Positions 39,230 through 48,721 of a stretch of 64,000 nt of DNA are shown one piece after another. The notes beneath the pieces are model-generated. The model was not told the origin of the DNA. It did not search any database and worked only from the letters and a program-made list of their open reading frames with translations. The stretch spans positions 68,383-132,382 of the forward strand of contig CAKOMR010000002.1 of assembly GCA_934096705.1 (NCBI GenBank), in the 5' to 3' direction. Positions within the stretch are counted from its first letter, which is position 1, and every line of letters begins with the position of its first letter. This DNA comes from an uncultured Bacilli bacterium. GTDB lineage: Bacteria; Bacillota_I; Bacilli_A; RF39; UBA660. The translations under genes and the position numbers were made by a program.

Positions 39230-39998
39230 CTGTTAAGGAAACAATTAAATATAATAAATAGGAAAAAATAATTAATATAAATATTGATGACATTACTAGA
39301 TCCAAATCAAAAACTTGTGTGCCATACATTATTAGGTATCCAATACCTTTTTTACATGAAAGAAATTCTCCAGTTATAACTCCTATAAGTGTTAGTGAAA
39401 TGTTAAGCTTTAAACTTGAAATGATACTTTTATAACTTGATGGTACTACAAGCTTAGTTAGTATTTGCCATTTGCTAGCATTAAATGTTTTAAACATTTT
39501 AATTTTAATTTTGTCTATGTTAATGAATCCATTATAGATACTTAGCATACTAACAATTAAATTTATTAAAAGCGCCATTATAATTATACTTTTTGTATTA
39601 GCACCAAATATGATTATAATAATTGGTCCTAGTGCGACTTTAGGTAGTGCATTCAAAATTGTTAAAAATGGTTCAAATATTTTTGAAATAAATGGATATT
39701 CATAAAAAATAGTTGCTATAATAAATCCAATTAACGTACCTAACAAAAATGATATTATTACTTCATTTAGTGTAGTAAAAATGTGCGGAAATAAATTATT
39801 TTGAAGAATTAAACTTTTTATTGTTTTAAATATGTTAGATGGGCTAGAGTAAATAAATGAATTAATAATCTGTTTTTTTGTTAATATTTCCCAAAGAGAA
39901 AAAAATATAATAATAATAAATATTTGAATAAATCTTACTAAAAATTTTTCCTTTTTTTGTTTTCTTAAAAAAATCTTTTGTCTATCAGATTGATACAT
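39204..39998 (-). CDS. ABC transporter permease (BPD_transp_1; nitrate/sulfonate/bicarbonate NitT/TauT-like)
   Basis: Six TMs and the EAA-like loop FNASKWQILTKLVVPSSYKSIISSLKLNISLTLIGVITGEF. Start overlaps the ATPase 3' end. Confidence 0.8.
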   Translation of the reverse strand: MYQSDRQKIFLRKQKKEKFLVRFIQIFIIIIFFSLWEILTKKQIINSFIYSSPSNIFKTIKSLILQNNLFPHIFTTLNEVIISFLLGTLIGFIIATIFYEYPFISKIFEPFLTILNALPKVALGPIIIIIFGANTKSIIIMALLINLIVSMLSIYNGFINIDKIKIKMFKTFNASKWQILTKLVVPSSYKSIISSLKLNISLTLIGVITGEFLSCKKGIGYLIMYGTQVFDLDLVMSSIFILIIFSYLLYLIVSLTEKKLIKND

Positions 39999-40320
39999 CT
40001 AAATCCCTCCATATTAAATCATAATAATTTGAAAATTCTTTGCATTTTCTATTTTCTATTGGATTACTTTTACCTTTCATTTCTATATTATATATTTTTT
40101 TTACAACTGCAGGCCTTTTTGAAAATACTATAATTCTATCACTTAAACTAATTGCTTCAGCTATGTCATGAGTTATCATTATTACGGTTTTATTTTCTTT
40201 TTTTATGATATTAAAAACGTCATCCGAAACTTTTAACCTTGATTGATAATCAAGTGCTGAAAATGGTTCATCTAAAAGTAAAATATCTGGTTTTATAGCA
40301 AGTGTCCTAATAAGAGCAAC
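39985..40320 (-). pseudogene. ABC transporter ATP-binding protein, C-terminal fragment (Walker B to end) of a gene split by the insertion
   Basis: Reverse-strand frame reads [24 protein letters not shown]...VIMITHDIAEA... to stop. No start codon or Walker A. Continues exactly from the fragment at 48203-48631. Confidence 0.88.
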
Positions 40321-40342
40321 TGTTTGAATGTAGCAAAGACAC
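40315..40342. repeat. left junction (att): core AGCAACT + element arm TTGAATGTA-N5-GACAC
   Basis: The arm is the inverted repeat of GTGTC-N5-TACATTCAA at the right end, with identical spacing. Confidence 0.8.
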
Positions 40343-40365
40343 TTAAAAAAAAGTATATATATTTT

Positions 40366-41952
40366 TTAAAAATTCCAAATAATTTTTATAATTCTCTTAT
40401 TATTTTCATCTAGTTTTCCAATGTAAATTTTGAGGATAAATTCATCAACAATGAACTTATTTAATTTTTTTATAACTTTATATTTTATAAATGAATTTTT
40501 ATTATCATTAATTGTAAATTTCTTATTTTTACAAAGATTAATTTTACTTTCAATAAATTTTATTTGATTTGTGTAAAAATTTTCATTATTAGTATAATTA
40601 ATAGTTAATTCTTTAAATTGTTCATTAGTAATTATTTTATTAATCTTATCTTCGTATAGTGATTTTAAATATTTTTTATTTTCTAATAATTTTTTTTTAT
40701 ATTCTATTTTTTGCTTTTCTAGTAAACTTAATTCATTTATCATTGTATTTTTGATATTATTAGTCACAATTTTAGATAAAATCTTTTCATCATAATAATT
40801 TTTTATTTTTTTATTGATTGCTCTTAATATAACATTTTCTAAATCATCATATCTAATAGATTTTTTATTTATACAATCATTGTATCCATTATTAACACTT
40901 GAGCAAACTAAATATTCATGTAATTTAGAATTCTTTTTTTTCATATATTTATTGCACTCTAAACAAAATACTTTACCAGAAAAATTATGCACAATTCCCG
41001 TATTTTTTCCAGCTTTTGTTCTTTCATTAATATACTTTTGTACTTTATCAAATGTTTTATTATCAATAATAGCTTCATGAGTATTTTCTCTTCTTATCCA
41101 ACTGTTTTTATTTTTTTTAATAATTTTATGATTTTTATAACTTATTGTAGTTCTTTTACCTTGCACTAAATTACCAATATATAATTCATTTGTCAGTATC
41201 GTTTTAATAGCATTTGCAGACCATTTTATTTCTTCTATAGGCCTATTACTTATTATGTTTAGTTTACTTCCTTTTTTATATTTATAAAATGAAGGAGATG
41301 GTATTTTTTTTTCATTTAAATATTTGGCTATTTCTGTAAAGCACATTCCTTTTAAATATAATCTAAAAATGTCTTTTACTATTTTAGCAGCCACAGGGTC
41401 TATTATTATTTTGTTATTATTTTCTTTTGAAATTTCATAACCAAAAGAAGTAAAAGGGGAAATAAATTCACCTTGTTTCATTTTTGTTTGAAAAGCACTT
41501 CTAATATTATTTGAGATATCTTCTAAGTACCATTCATTAACAAGGCCATTTATTTGCCTAGATTTTTTATTGCCTTGGATATTAGTATCTGCATTATCAA
41601 CTAAACCGATAAATCTAATATTCCATTCAATAAACTTATTGTGAATATATTTTTCAATTATTTCCATATCTCTAGAAAATCTGGATTGACTTTTACATAG
41701 GACTATATCAATTTTTCCATTTTCACAATCCTTAATTAATCTTTCAAATTCAGGTCTATAAGTACCGGCACCTGACAAATCTTCATCACAATATTCATCA
41801 ACAAGTTTAAATTTGGGATTTTTTCTAATTTCGTCTAAAAGTAAATTTCTTTGATTTTTAATGGACTCACTATCGTCAAGTTTATTTGTTTTGTCTTTAT
41901 CTTCATCAGATAATCTTAAATAAATAGCTACTTTTAAATAATCTTTATTCAT
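40366..41952 (-). CDS. large serine recombinase (resolvase catalytic domain + recombinase domain + zinc ribbon + coiled coil)
   Basis: VAIYLRLSDED...SIKNQR (catalytic Ser region), DIVLCKSQSRFSRD, FGYEI recombinase domain, CLECNKYM...LVCSS...C zinc ribbon, and a Lys/Asn-rich coiled C-terminus. 528 aa. Confidence 0.9.
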   Translation of the reverse strand: MNKDYLKVAIYLRLSDEDKDKTNKLDDSESIKNQRNLLLDEIRKNPKFKLVDEYCDEDLSGAGTYRPEFERLIKDCENGKIDIVLCKSQSRFSRDMEIIEKYIHNKFIEWNIRFIGLVDNADTNIQGNKKSRQINGLVNEWYLEDISNNIRSAFQTKMKQGEFISPFTSFGYEISKENNNKIIIDPVAAKIVKDIFRLYLKGMCFTEIAKYLNEKKIPSPSFYKYKKGSKLNIISNRPIEEIKWSANAIKTILTNELYIGNLVQGKRTTISYKNHKIIKKNKNSWIRRENTHEAIIDNKTFDKVQKYINERTKAGKNTGIVHNFSGKVFCLECNKYMKKKNSKLHEYLVCSSVNNGYNDCINKKSIRYDDLENVILRAINKKIKNYYDEKILSKIVTNNIKNTMINELSLLEKQKIEYKKKLLENKKYLKSLYEDKINKIITNEQFKELTINYTNNENFYTNQIKFIESKINLCKNKKFTINDNKNSFIKYKVIKKLNKFIVDEFILKIYIGKLDENNKRIIKIIWNF

Positions 41953-41966
41953 AAAGCCTCCAATAG

Positions 41967-48138: not shown

Positions 48139-48175
48139 AAAAATCTAATAAGTAATATGCTTATTAGATTTTTTA
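48139..48175 (+). terminator. intrinsic terminator closing the cargo operon, inside the element
   Basis: AAATCTAATAAG-taatatg-CTTATTAGATTT followed by a T-run. Confidence 0.85.
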
Positions 48176-48187
48176 TTGTTATAATTG

Positions 48188-48212
48188 GTGTCCACATTAC
48201 ATTCAAGCAACT
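48188..48212. repeat. right junction (att): element arm GTGTC-N5-TACATTCAA + core AGCAACT
   Basis: See the left junction. Joining the two ends gives GTGTC-N5-TACATTCAA-N8-TTGAATGTA-N5-GACAC. Confidence 0.8.
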
Positions 48213-48622
48213 CTTTGTTTCATGCCACCAGATAAAGATGCCGGATATTTATCCATAAAATCTTTTAATCCGTACGTAGTTAGTAAATTTTTTACATATT
48301 CAACATTTTCCTTTGTATCTATTTTTTTAATTTTTAAGCCTAAAATTGCATTTTCAAATATATTTAAATAGGGAAGAAGAGCATCCTCTTGAAGCATATA
48401 TCCTATAATTGGTTTTTCTTTAGAAAAAATCATTTTTCCATTATAATTTTCAAGTCCTGCAATAATGTTTAATAAGGTTGATTTACCACAACCAGATGAA
48501 CCGACAATTGCAATAAATTCATTTTCAAACACATCAAAAGAGATATCATCTATAGCATTTACTTCACCCTTGGGTGTATTAAAAATTTTGTTAATATTTT
48601 GTAAACTTAAAAGTGGTTTCAT
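48203..48622 (-). pseudogene. ABC transporter ATP-binding protein, N-terminal fragment (Walker A to signature motif), truncated by the insertion
   Basis: LSLQNINKIF...GSSGCGKSTLLN (Walker A)...[10 protein letters not shown], then TGA contributed by element sequence. ATG at 48622 behind AGGTGA (track start 48631). Confidence 0.88.
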
Positions 48623-48721
48623 TTTCATCACCTATGATATTTTATTCAACTAATAAATTATGAACTATTGAAATAGTTTAGAAGTATATTTAAAAAATTT
48701 AATAATTATGTTATATTTATA

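What the first reader, a model, noticed from the sequence alone, without database searches (positions are those of the whole stretch)
39985..48631. ABC-transporter ATPase gene split between the signature motif and Walker B by a 7.9-kb insertion
On the minus strand, 48631->48206 encodes Walker A (GSSGCGKS), the Q-loop and [10 protein letters not shown], then immediately hits TGA. The frame 40320->39985 encodes [24 protein letters not shown]...ITHD... and overlaps the permease start. Removing 7,891 bp (one AGCAACT copy plus everything between) rejoins them in frame as ...[26 protein letters not shown]..., a normal ABC ATPase of about 250 aa. Neither fragment shows other lesions, so the insertion is either recent or reversible.
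Basis: seen in the sequence. Interest (0 to 1): 0.85.

Follow-up and report, generated by a model that had tools for sequence, protein, structure and literature searches.

The report
Integrase-borne mobile cassette splitting an ABC-transporter gene
A 7.9-kb mobile DNA cassette carrying its own serine integrase sits precisely inside an ABC-transporter ATPase gene of an uncultured gut bacterium; this is an ordinary kind of gene disruption, though the cassette's giant cargo protein is completely uncharacterised.

Summary
The ABC ATPase gene is cut between the signature motif and Walker B. Deleting 7,891 bp restores a gapless ORF that is 97% identical to intact 248-aa proteins.

Five contigs from closely related strains have the same gene order without the insert. 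They break exactly at the 7-bp repeat.

The insert has a 528-aa large serine recombinase at one end and an imperfectly palindromic attP around a central GT. Its cargo is a 1,640-aa protein with no known family and a ProA-like protein that lacks its catalytic segment. It has no phage, relaxase or conjugation genes.

Recombinases 67-74% identical split the same codon in other gut Bacilli. One relative carries a Mob_Pre relaxase, so the family includes mobilizable elements.

About 92% of contigs from this species carry the interrupted allele. Synonymous divergence is 0.03-0.05 inside the element and 0.11-0.36 in the flanks. The element therefore spread horizontally, and recently.

Reversibility is unproven. 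No attP junction was found, and a 131-aa gene conserved in relatives (a possible directionality factor) is missing here.

Verdict: a new member of a known kind, of moderate-to-low interest. The cargo is the most novel part.

The parts
48203..48631 (-). 5' fragment of the ABC ATPase gene: Walker A, Q-loop and signature motif [10 protein letters not shown], then TGA. The likely true start is the ATG at 48622.
   Evidence: The exact 139-aa product is seen on 66 contigs.
48186..48235 (-). attL. Host arm B, then the central GT (AC on the + strand at 48210-48211, inside the 7-bp repeat 48206-48212), then element arm P (48186-48209).
   Evidence: The empty-site alignments end at 48206.
48139..48173 (+). 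Perfect 14-bp hairpin followed by a U-run, directly after the stop of the ProA-like gene. It looks like the terminator of the cargo operon.
   Evidence: -20.7 kcal/mol, z = -6.9.
47113..48138 (+). ProA-like (gamma-glutamyl-phosphate-reductase-like) protein of 341 aa. It overlaps the end of the giant gene. The segment matching ProA residues ~238-307 is reduced to ~12 residues.
   Evidence: PRK00197, 67.6 bits against a cutoff of 289; alignment to 8zok. It is linked to the giant gene in 51 loci.
42219..47141 (+). Giant cargo protein of 1,640 aa. No Pfam, PHROG, PADLOC or PDB sequence match and no transmembrane segment. It has four PE[IL]F...P..LK..FY repeats. The C-terminal domain has invariant DCCQ / CMEHS / QSWVWRN / CFDNIE motifs.
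   Evidence: AF2 of the C-terminus: pLDDT 85.7, with weak GNAT-fold matches and phage or 'PcfJ-like' matches. AF2 of the N-terminal 620 aa: pLDDT 87.8, with no fold match.
41953..42218 (.). Divergent intergenic region between the recombinase and the giant gene. It holds only a 27-aa ORF. Two independent assemblies break at 42144.
40366..41952 (-). Large serine recombinase of 528 aa (Resolvase + Recombinase + Zn_ribbon_recom domains; YLRLS catalytic motif near the N-terminus).
   Evidence: phrog_95 integrase, 3.5e-94; full-length homologues at 65-97% identity.
40296..40344 (-). attR. Element arm P' (40321-40344), then the central GT (AC on the + strand at 40319-40320, inside the repeat 40315-40321), then host arm B'.
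   Evidence: P' and P are 16/24 complementary, so the reconstructed attP is an imperfect palindrome.
39985..40320 (-). 3' fragment of the ABC ATPase gene (Walker B, D-loop, H-loop). It has no in-frame start codon before the internal ATG at 40179.
39204..39998 (-). Intact ABC permease (BPD_transp_1, 264 aa). Its start overlaps the end of the ATPase gene. In other strains and species this gene is itself split by a second, unrelated serine-recombinase element.
40322..48212 (.). The whole inserted element, 7,891 bp (one repeat copy counted).

Best explanation
The insert is a small integrative genomic element that is neither a phage nor conjugative. Its own large serine recombinase placed it at a fixed site, a central GT in the codons for ...QR|VA..., between the signature motif and Walker B of a NitT/TauT-like ABC importer ATPase. 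The attP site is an imperfect palindrome. attB lies in motif-coding DNA that is well conserved, which gives this recombinase family a target in many host species. Integration truncates the ATPase after [10 protein letters not shown]. The Walker B half is left without a start codon, so the transporter is switched off while the element is in place (inferred). The element belongs to a large family in uncultured gut Bacilli that uses the same recombinase and the same target with exchangeable cargo. Some members are true mobilizable elements with a Mob_Pre relaxase. This one instead carries a giant uncharacterised protein and a catalytically gutted ProA-like partner. It spread horizontally among strains of its species recently and is now the majority allele. 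How it moves between cells is inferred, not shown: mobilisation in trans by a co-resident element, or uptake of DNA followed by recombinase-mediated integration. Excision would restore the gene exactly. This copy lacks the conserved 131-aa accessory gene of its relatives, so self-excision may be inefficient or may depend on a helper.
For: Exact junctions and the 7-bp repeat. Gapless rejoined ORF. Empty sites with the same gene order that break at the repeat. Intact three-domain recombinase next to attR. Palindromic attP with 16/24 complementary arms. The same codon is split by elements whose recombinases are 67-74% identical, in other species and with other cargo: L003, L086 with Mob_Pre, AAA_25, SocA_Panacea and HTH genes, L090 with a Flg_new protein and L093. 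All junctions share ...AGA|GT|.... dS is 0.028-0.054 for element genes and 0.11-0.36 for flanking genes, and the ABC fragments of L021 are as diverged from the window as those of empty-site strains. This points to independent site-specific acquisition in diverged backgrounds. dN/dS is 0.2-0.36 for the recombinase, giant and ProA-like genes, so they are under purifying selection. There are about 155 filled against about 13 empty contigs. No phage or relaxase genes were found.
Against: No circular or attP junction was found in IMG/VR or in JGI metagenomes, although those collections may not contain this species. No relaxase, oriT or directionality factor was identified in this copy, so neither excision nor transfer is demonstrated. 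In L001-type strains the ABC 5' fragment is nearly as undiverged as the element (dS 0.049). Some spread may therefore be by homologous recombination of flanking DNA rather than by the recombinase. Loss of transporter function is inferred from sequence only.
Confidence: 0.85

Rival explanations
1. The element is a domesticated, reversible genetic switch, like skin in sigK, SPbeta in spsM or gin in gerE. It normally interrupts the transporter gene and is excised under a specific condition or in a cell subpopulation to restore a working ABC ATPase.
For: The interrupted allele dominates the species (about 92%). Both gene halves are free of lesions. The recombinase is intact and under purifying selection. 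Excision would be scarless. A precedent exists for non-phage intervening elements with serine recombinases (PMC5595907).
Against: The element is far younger than the strain divergence, so intact halves need no selection to explain them. No directionality-factor candidate is present, and the 131-aa gene conserved in relatives is absent here and broken in L003. No attP or excised form was found. The target is a nutrient-importer ATPase, not a developmental gene. The same recombinase family carries relaxase-type mobilizable cargo elsewhere, which fits selfish mobility. A second, unrelated element often disrupts the permease of the same operon.
Confidence: 0.1
2. The element is a dead insertion. 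It integrated once and is now an immobile remnant inherited vertically, and the ABC gene is simply a pseudogene.
For: No relaxase, directionality factor or transfer genes are present. The insert is present in most strains.
Against: dS inside the element is 5-10 times lower than in the host flanks, and the change falls at the att sites in L021. This cannot be reconciled with vertical descent from one old insertion. The recombinase has dN/dS 0.36 and is full length. Filled and empty strains are not phylogenetically separated.
Confidence: 0.04
3. The element is a degraded prophage, or the structure is an assembly or binning artefact.
For: The recombinase's best PHROG family is a phage integrase family. 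The source is a metagenome-assembled genome.
Against: No other PHROG hit was found. There is no DNA match to 50,697 phage records. No relative of the giant protein or the recombinase is in IMG/VR. The same filled structure was assembled independently in dozens of samples and by different assemblers, on contigs up to 0.5 Mb, including one that is 100% identical to the window (L082).
Confidence: 0.01

Closest known systems
Integrative and mobilizable elements (IMEs) of Firmicutes that encode a site-specific serine recombinase, e.g. those in rumA, or in Maff2, SNF2 and traG genes of ICEs (review PMC5704250)
   Same: A single large serine recombinase at one end. Very short direct repeats. Integration inside a conserved gene, which is thereby disrupted. 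Small size and variable cargo. A sister element with a 67%-identical recombinase in the same target carries a Mob_Pre relaxase (L086).
   Different: The window element has no relaxase and no recognisable mobilisation module. The target, the signature-motif/Walker B junction of an ABC ATPase, was not among the targets named in the passages of the review retrieved. The cargo is a 1,640-aa unknown protein plus a ProA-like pseudoenzyme.
gin element in gerE of Bacillus cereus ATCC 10987 (PMC5595907), and skin or SPbeta-type gene-intervening elements
   Same: A non-phage element with a serine recombinase that interrupts a coding sequence. It has a short consensus core within an imperfect inverted repeat, and excision would rebuild the gene precisely.
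   Different: Those elements have a demonstrated directionality factor (GirX, SprB) and sporulation-controlled excision from mother-cell genes. Here no such factor is present, no developmental context is known, and population genetics indicates recent horizontal spread.
Staphylococcal cassette chromosome (SCC) elements with Ccr recombinases
   Same: A cassette made only of serine recombinase plus cargo, with no phage or conjugation genes of its own. It inserts at one conserved chromosomal site, and cassettes with different cargo share that site.
   Different: The matches to the CcrB and CcrC models are far below their cutoffs (about 90 bits against 900). SCC inserts at the 3' end of rlmH without inactivating it, whereas this element cuts its target gene in the middle.
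NitT/TauT-type ABC importer ATPases (SsuB, TauB, SaoA-like), the interrupted gene
   Same: End-to-end collinear match of the rejoined ORF. Walker A, Q-loop, signature, Walker B and H-loop are in the normal order. It is paired with a BPD_transp_1 permease. In relatives an NMT1-type binding protein lies upstream.
   Different: Scores are below every NCBIfam equivalog cutoff (best is SaoA, 197.9 against 360), so the substrate is unknown. No binding-protein gene lies in this 64-kb window.

Membership tests
Large-serine-recombinase integrative element | Recombinase with an N-terminal resolvase catalytic domain, a recombinase domain and a zinc-ribbon domain | tested here: met
   PF00239 (8.7e-20), PF07508 (3.6e-25) and PF13408 (3.3e-10) in the correct order. 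The YLRLS serine motif is visible in the sequence.
Large-serine-recombinase integrative element | Short identical core at both junctions and an imperfectly palindromic attP around a central dinucleotide | tested here: met
   7-bp repeat. Arms are 16/24 complementary around GT. The same ...AGA|GT| junction is seen in five related elements.
Large-serine-recombinase integrative element | Unoccupied attB in relatives, collinear with the flanks | tested here: met
   L007-L011 break at 48206 and 40326. The intact 248-aa products are P0073, P0074, P0198, P0199 and P0203.
Large-serine-recombinase integrative element | Excised circular form (attP junction) or a recombination directionality factor | tested here: inconclusive
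   No attP match in IMG/VR or JGI metagenomes. No small accessory ORF is present, and the 131-aa gene conserved in L086 and L090 is absent.
Integrative and mobilizable element (IME) | Own relaxase and/or oriT allowing mobilisation by a conjugative helper | tested here: not met
   No relaxase domain in any of the three ORFs. oriT cannot be tested. The sister element L086 does have Mob_Pre.
Developmentally excised gene-intervening element (skin, SPbeta, gin type) | Regulated excision by recombinase plus directionality factor that reconstitutes a gene needed at a defined stage | not testable with these tools
   Only the sequence-level preconditions are met (scarless rejoining). No directionality-factor candidate is present.
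Prophage | Phage structural, packaging or lysis genes | tested here: not met
   The only clear PHROG hit is the integrase. No phage DNA match. Absent from IMG/VR.
SCC (Ccr recombinase cassettes) | CcrA/B or CcrC-type recombinase above the family cutoff | tested here: not met
   CcrB 90.1 bits and CcrC 86.9 bits against a cutoff of 900.
ABC transporter ATPase (interrupted gene) | Full collinear set of Walker A, Q-loop, signature, Walker B and H-loop after rejoining | tested here: met
   PF00005 2.7e-29. SaoA profile positions 2-236 of 248. 241/248 identical and gapless against P0074.
Gamma-glutamyl phosphate reductase (ProA), for the 341-aa cargo protein | Score above the family cutoff and presence of the catalytic-cysteine segment | tested here: not met
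   67.6 bits against a cutoff of 289. The alignment to 8zok skips chain residues ~238-307. That this segment holds the catalytic Cys is from my own knowledge of ProA structures, not tested here.
GNAT-fold acyltransferase, for the C-terminal domain of the giant protein | Significant fold match and an acyl-CoA binding motif | tested here: inconclusive
   All top 50 PDB Foldseek hits are GNAT-fold proteins, but E >= 6.6e-3 and TM about 0.2-0.5. No Pfam GNAT hit. The motif was not examined.

The most novel reading that the evidence does not exclude
The payload, not the insertion, may be the new biology. The giant protein and its ProA-like partner could form an undescribed two-gene system. It would have a constant ~1,100-aa helical, repeat-containing body carrying interchangeable C-terminal enzymatic heads. 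One head is GNAT/PcfJ-like and is always followed by the ProA-like pseudoenzyme. The other is a nucleotidyltransferase head and has no partner. That layout is typical of conflict or effector systems. In addition, two unrelated serine-recombinase lineages repeatedly land in the same ABC operon, often both at once. This could mean that knocking out the transporter, or toggling it by excision, is itself selected, for example because it closes an entry route.
Probability: 0.12. Interest if true: 0.65.

Novelty: new member of a known kind. Interest (0 to 1): 0.35.

Why it matters
The case cleanly documents a family of serine-recombinase cassettes in uncultured, low-GC gut Bacilli. The family uses the DNA encoding a near-universal ABC-ATPase motif as its landing site. 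It supplies natural attB/attP pairs and several orthologous recombinases at 67-97% identity, which could be useful as integration tools. It shows that the interrupted transporter allele is the common state in this species, which matters for metabolic reconstruction from MAGs because the gene would be called as two fragments or as a pseudogene. It also flags a large family of 1,400-1,900-aa proteins with no annotation at all (1,448 cluster representatives for the C-terminal domain). These always travel with a degenerate ProA-like protein.

Tried and rejected
1. I searched for the excised circle. Exact attP junction patterns for the window-type element in IMG/VR and JGI metagenomes, and for the L003-type element in JGI metagenomes, found nothing. 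This is uninformative, because the species is mainly seen in ENA and Logan data.
2. Phage origin is rejected.
3. Known defence system: PADLOC gave no hit for any of the three ORFs.
4. Function of the giant protein by sequence: Pfam, NCBIfam, PHROG and PDB searches were all negative. Permissive Pfam scans gave only scattered weak OST-HTH and SHOCT hits, and DUF4116 repeats in three distant relatives.
5. Fold of the N-terminal 620 aa: the model is confident but matches nothing in the PDB.
6. A riboswitch or other RNA near the operon: only RNase P and tRNAs were found elsewhere in the window.
7. Promoter and terminator consensus scans were uninformative in this AT-rich DNA: 87 sites found against 87 expected.
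8. I looked for att remnants in L024, where the giant gene sits next to an intact ABC operon. None were found.
9. I looked for a binding-protein gene in the window. None was found.
10. I considered that the intact gene halves prove selection for reversibility. I rejected this because the element is too young for decay to be expected.
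Full report
**1. The observation**

On the minus strand, 48631->48206 encodes the N-terminal 142 residues of an ABC ATPase. These include GSSGCGKS, the Q-loop and [10 protein letters not shown], and the frame runs straight into TGA. The frame 40320->39985 continues with [24 protein letters not shown]...ITHD... and overlaps the start of a BPD_transp_1 permease at 39998.

AGCAACT occurs at 40315-40321 and at 48206-48212. Removing 40322-48212 (7,891 bp) gives one ORF. That ORF matches PF00005 and is collinear with NCBIfam SaoA over profile positions 2-236 of 248. 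It aligns 241/248 with no gap to an intact 248-aa protein from metagenomes, and the alignment is identical across the junction.

**2. It is an insertion, with exact ends**

Five contigs from at least four samples (L007-L011) carry the intact gene in the same neighbourhood. The order is DHH/CBS pyrophosphatase, ABC ATPase, permease, NusG, SecE, AAA protein. They are 93-97% identical to the window at the DNA level. Their alignments to the window stop at 48206 and resume at 40326, that is, at the repeat.

The filled structure is not an assembly artefact. It was assembled independently many times on contigs up to about 0.5 Mb, and one of them is 100% identical to the window (L082).

**3. Anatomy of the insert**

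Read from attR to attL on the + strand, the insert contains the following.
- A 528-aa large serine recombinase on the minus strand at 40366-41952. It ends 45 bp from the junction and has Resolvase, Recombinase and Zn_ribbon_recom domains plus a YLRLS motif.
- A 266-bp divergent intergenic region.
- A 1,640-aa ORF at 42219-47141.
- An overlapping 341-aa ORF at 47113-48138.
- A perfect 14-bp hairpin with a U-run at 48139-48173 (z = -6.9).

Joining the two ends gives GTGTCTTTGCTACATTCAAACA-GT-TGCTTGAATGTAATGTGGACAC. The arms are 16/24 complementary around a central GT, which is the classical layout of a serine-integrase attP. There are no phage, relaxase, replication or conjugation genes. There is no DNA similarity to phage records. 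No relatives are found in IMG/VR.

**4. A family of elements with the same target**

Homologues of the recombinase at 65-75% identity are very numerous in gut metagenomes, and the few that carry a name are called 'Bacilli bacterium'. Every context examined splits the same ATPase at the same codon. The 74%-identical recombinase P0225 (L093) also belongs to this set.
- **L003-L006**. The recombinase is 73% identical. The junction reads ...[12 protein letters not shown].... The cargo is again the giant protein plus the ProA-like protein.
- **L086**. The recombinase is 67% identical. The cargo is a 132-aa ORF, DUF5680, SocA_Panacea, an HTH protein, an AAA_25/DnaB_C protein and a Mob_Pre relaxase. 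This is a genuine integrative mobilizable element.
- **L090**. The cargo is a 131-aa ORF, a Flg_new protein and a 286-aa ORF.
- **L093**. The cargo includes a Bro-N protein.

All junctions share host ...AGA|GT|(T/A)GC.... All element arms begin GTGTCT...(T)ACATTCA or ...ATATTCG. Comparing the cores (AGTTGCT in the window, AGAGT in L003) narrows the crossover to the shared GT.

According to the review PMC5704250, IMEs of Firmicutes with site-specific serine recombinases typically integrate inside dispensable genes and disrupt them. This element fits that pattern, except that it has no relaxase.

**5. Population genetics: recent horizontal spread**

In the 90%-identity cluster of the ATPase, the split 139-142-aa forms were seen on about 155 contigs. 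The intact 248-aa forms were seen on about 13. The interrupted allele is therefore the common one.

Between the window and strain L021, synonymous divergence differs sharply between the element and the host backbone.

| Gene | dS, window vs L021 |
|---|---|
| Recombinase (element) | 0.032 |
| Giant gene (element) | 0.028 |
| ProA-like gene (element) | 0.054 |
| ABC 5' fragment (flank) | 0.11 |
| ABC 3' fragment (flank) | 0.19 |
| Permease (flank) | 0.33 |
| Pyrophosphatase (flank) | 0.32 |
| Genes further out (flank) | 0.16-0.36 |

The ABC fragments of L021 are as different from the window as those of empty-site strains. The zone of low divergence therefore ends at the att sites. The simplest reading is that the same element entered already-diverged strains by site-specific integration.

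In L001-type strains the 5' fragment is nearly as undiverged as the element (dS 0.049). Some spread by homologous recombination of flanking DNA is therefore also likely.

dN/dS is 0.2-0.36 for the three element genes, so they are maintained by selection. This recency is enough to explain why neither gene half has decayed.

**6. Reversibility**

Excision would be scarless, and the recombinase and both att sites are intact. However, I found no attP junction (these searches had low power).

The element also has no small accessory gene. Relatives L086 and L090 keep a conserved 131-132-aa ORF, 73% identical to each other, next to attL. In L003 it is broken into pieces of 60 and 36 aa. In the window it is absent. 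It has no Pfam match. Calling it a directionality factor is my inference only.

The review cited above notes that TndX of Tn4451 excises without such a factor. Its absence here is therefore not decisive.

**7. Consequence for the host (inferred)**

The 5' fragment stops one codon after the core. The 3' fragment has no in-frame start before an internal ATG at 40179. A functional ATPase cannot be made while the element is in place.

The substrate is unknown. Scores are below all equivalog cutoffs. An NMT1-type binding protein lies upstream in relatives but not in this window. No riboswitch was found.

**8. The cargo**

*Distribution.* The giant protein has 72 homologue clusters, none of them named. 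It occurs in 69 species-representative genomes. Most are 'uncultured Bacilli bacterium' gut MAGs from rabbit, Hadza people and goat, together with 'Mycoplasma sp. CAG:877' and 'Clostridium sp. CAG:914'. L021 (CAKONC010000001.1) represents the window's species.

*Context.* In most of these genomes the giant and ProA-like genes are an overlapping pair in unrelated chromosomal contexts, with no recombinase within 10 kb. In about 15 loci a serine recombinase is nearby. The pair is thus a widespread module that several recombinase lineages have picked up.

*Structure of the body.* The protein is soluble, with no hydrophobic segment, and has four PE[IL]F...P..LK..FY repeats. An AF2 model of residues 1-620 is confident (pLDDT 87.8) but matches nothing in the PDB.

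*Two C-terminal types.* There are two kinds of C-terminus.
- **Type A**, present here. It has invariant DCCQ, CMEHS, QSWVWRN and CFDNIE motifs and is followed by the ProA-like gene wherever the DNA downstream of the giant gene is available.
- **Type B**. It has a GSTGRGT...DGDFD nucleotidyltransferase-like signature and has no ProA-like gene downstream.

*Fold of type A.* The AF2 model of type A has pLDDT 85.7. Only GNAT-fold proteins appear among the top PDB hits, but weakly (E >= 6.6e-3). In BFVD it hits an uncharacterised phage protein (5e-11), LP65 Orf137 and 'PcfJ-like' proteins. The domain family has 1,448 cluster representatives at E <= 1e-3.

*The partner.* The ProA-like protein scores far below the ProA cutoffs. 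It lacks the segment equivalent to ProA residues ~238-307. From my knowledge of ProA structures, that segment contains the catalytic cysteine, so I regard the protein as a pseudoenzyme partner.

The function of the pair remains unknown. A modular effector with a dedicated partner is the most economical guess, and I rate it as speculative.

**9. Comparison and verdict**

Mechanistically this is a serine-recombinase integrative element. Its closest relatives in kind are the gene-disrupting serine-recombinase IMEs of Firmicutes. It also resembles SCC cassettes and the gin element.

It is not a prophage. It is not an IME in the strict sense, because it has no relaxase. It cannot be filed as a developmental intervening element.

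Three things are new: the target (the signature/Walker B junction of an ABC ATPase), the recombinase lineage and the cargo. I therefore class it as a new member of a known kind. Interest is moderate to low for the insertion itself and higher for the uncharacterised cargo.

Noticed in passing
L021:724-6779 (CAKONC010000001.1, the GTDB representative of the window's species); window 39204-39998 is the intact equivalent: In this strain the permease gene of the same operon is also split, at about residue 206-215 (...LIG|VITGEF...). The insert is a second ~5.2-kb element with an unrelated serine recombinase, 21-27% identical to the window's. Its cargo is a desulfoferrodoxin, an HTH_3 regulator and a DUF3221 protein, and it has its own inverted-repeat ends. 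The same double occupancy is seen in L086.
   Followed up: partly
L029:4731-18960: A 13.3-kb element with the permease-targeting recombinase lineage (63% identical to L021's second recombinase) splits the permease at the same place. It carries a phosphoketolase, a sigma-70 region 4 protein, an AMP-binding enzyme and also the giant/ProA-like pair. Two unrelated recombinase lineages therefore carry the same cargo into the same operon.
   Followed up: partly
L021:7127-8089; L084 and L085: A variant of the window's element has an extra ~1-kb gene (RhuM + Fic/DOC domains, 320 aa) between the recombinase and attR, with identical att arms. This polymorphism probably causes the short recombinase-only contigs seen in assemblies.
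   Followed up: partly
window 42144 (start of contigs L001 and L002): Two independent assemblies (ENA megahit and Logan) both break at exactly this position, in the AT-rich spacer between the recombinase and the giant gene. No repeat is visible there, and the cause is unexplained (possibly strain variation or a coverage drop).
   Followed up: partly
L086:1779-2177, L090:5715-6110, L003:16107-16396: A conserved 131-132-aa ORF with no Pfam match sits at the attL-proximal end of related elements. It is fragmented in L003 and absent from the window element. It is a candidate accessory or directionality factor.
   Followed up: partly
P0052, P0054-P0067 and loci L038, L044, L050, L058-L073: Paralogues of the giant protein share the N-terminal ~850 residues but end in a nucleotidyltransferase-like domain (GSTGRGT...DGDFD...GGLGGVGIENW). 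These are not followed by the ProA-like gene.
   Followed up: partly
L030, L031, L040, L055: Two or three tandem copies of the giant gene occur in some genomes. In L055 a ProA-like gene lies on both sides.
   Followed up: no
L024:8338-15848: The giant/ProA-like pair lies 106 bp (127 bp by the tblastn match start) upstream of, and divergent from, an intact copy of the same ABC ATPase-permease operon. There is no recombinase and no att remnant.
   Followed up: yes
window 48139-48173: A perfect 14-bp hairpin plus U-run lies right after the ProA-like stop codon (-20.7 kcal/mol, z = -6.9). The generic terminator scan missed it because the stem has almost no G-C pairs.
   Followed up: yes
H11-H13 (Microcystis phages MaMV-DC and MaMV-DH01): There is weak tblastn similarity (E about 2e-4) between giant-protein residues 1169-1351, the conserved CCQ/H domain, and hypothetical cyanophage proteins.
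   Followed up: no
L023, L025, L035 (record titles): Loci carrying the giant gene are labelled Methanobrevibacter, Muribaculaceae and Ignavibacteriales MAGs. These are probably binning or labelling errors, given the low-GC Bacilli-type sequence.
   Followed up: no
window 11790-12134: Bacterial RNase P class B RNA (267 bits). Five tRNA genes lie elsewhere in the window. This is consistent with a low-GC Firmicutes/Bacilli host.
   Followed up: no
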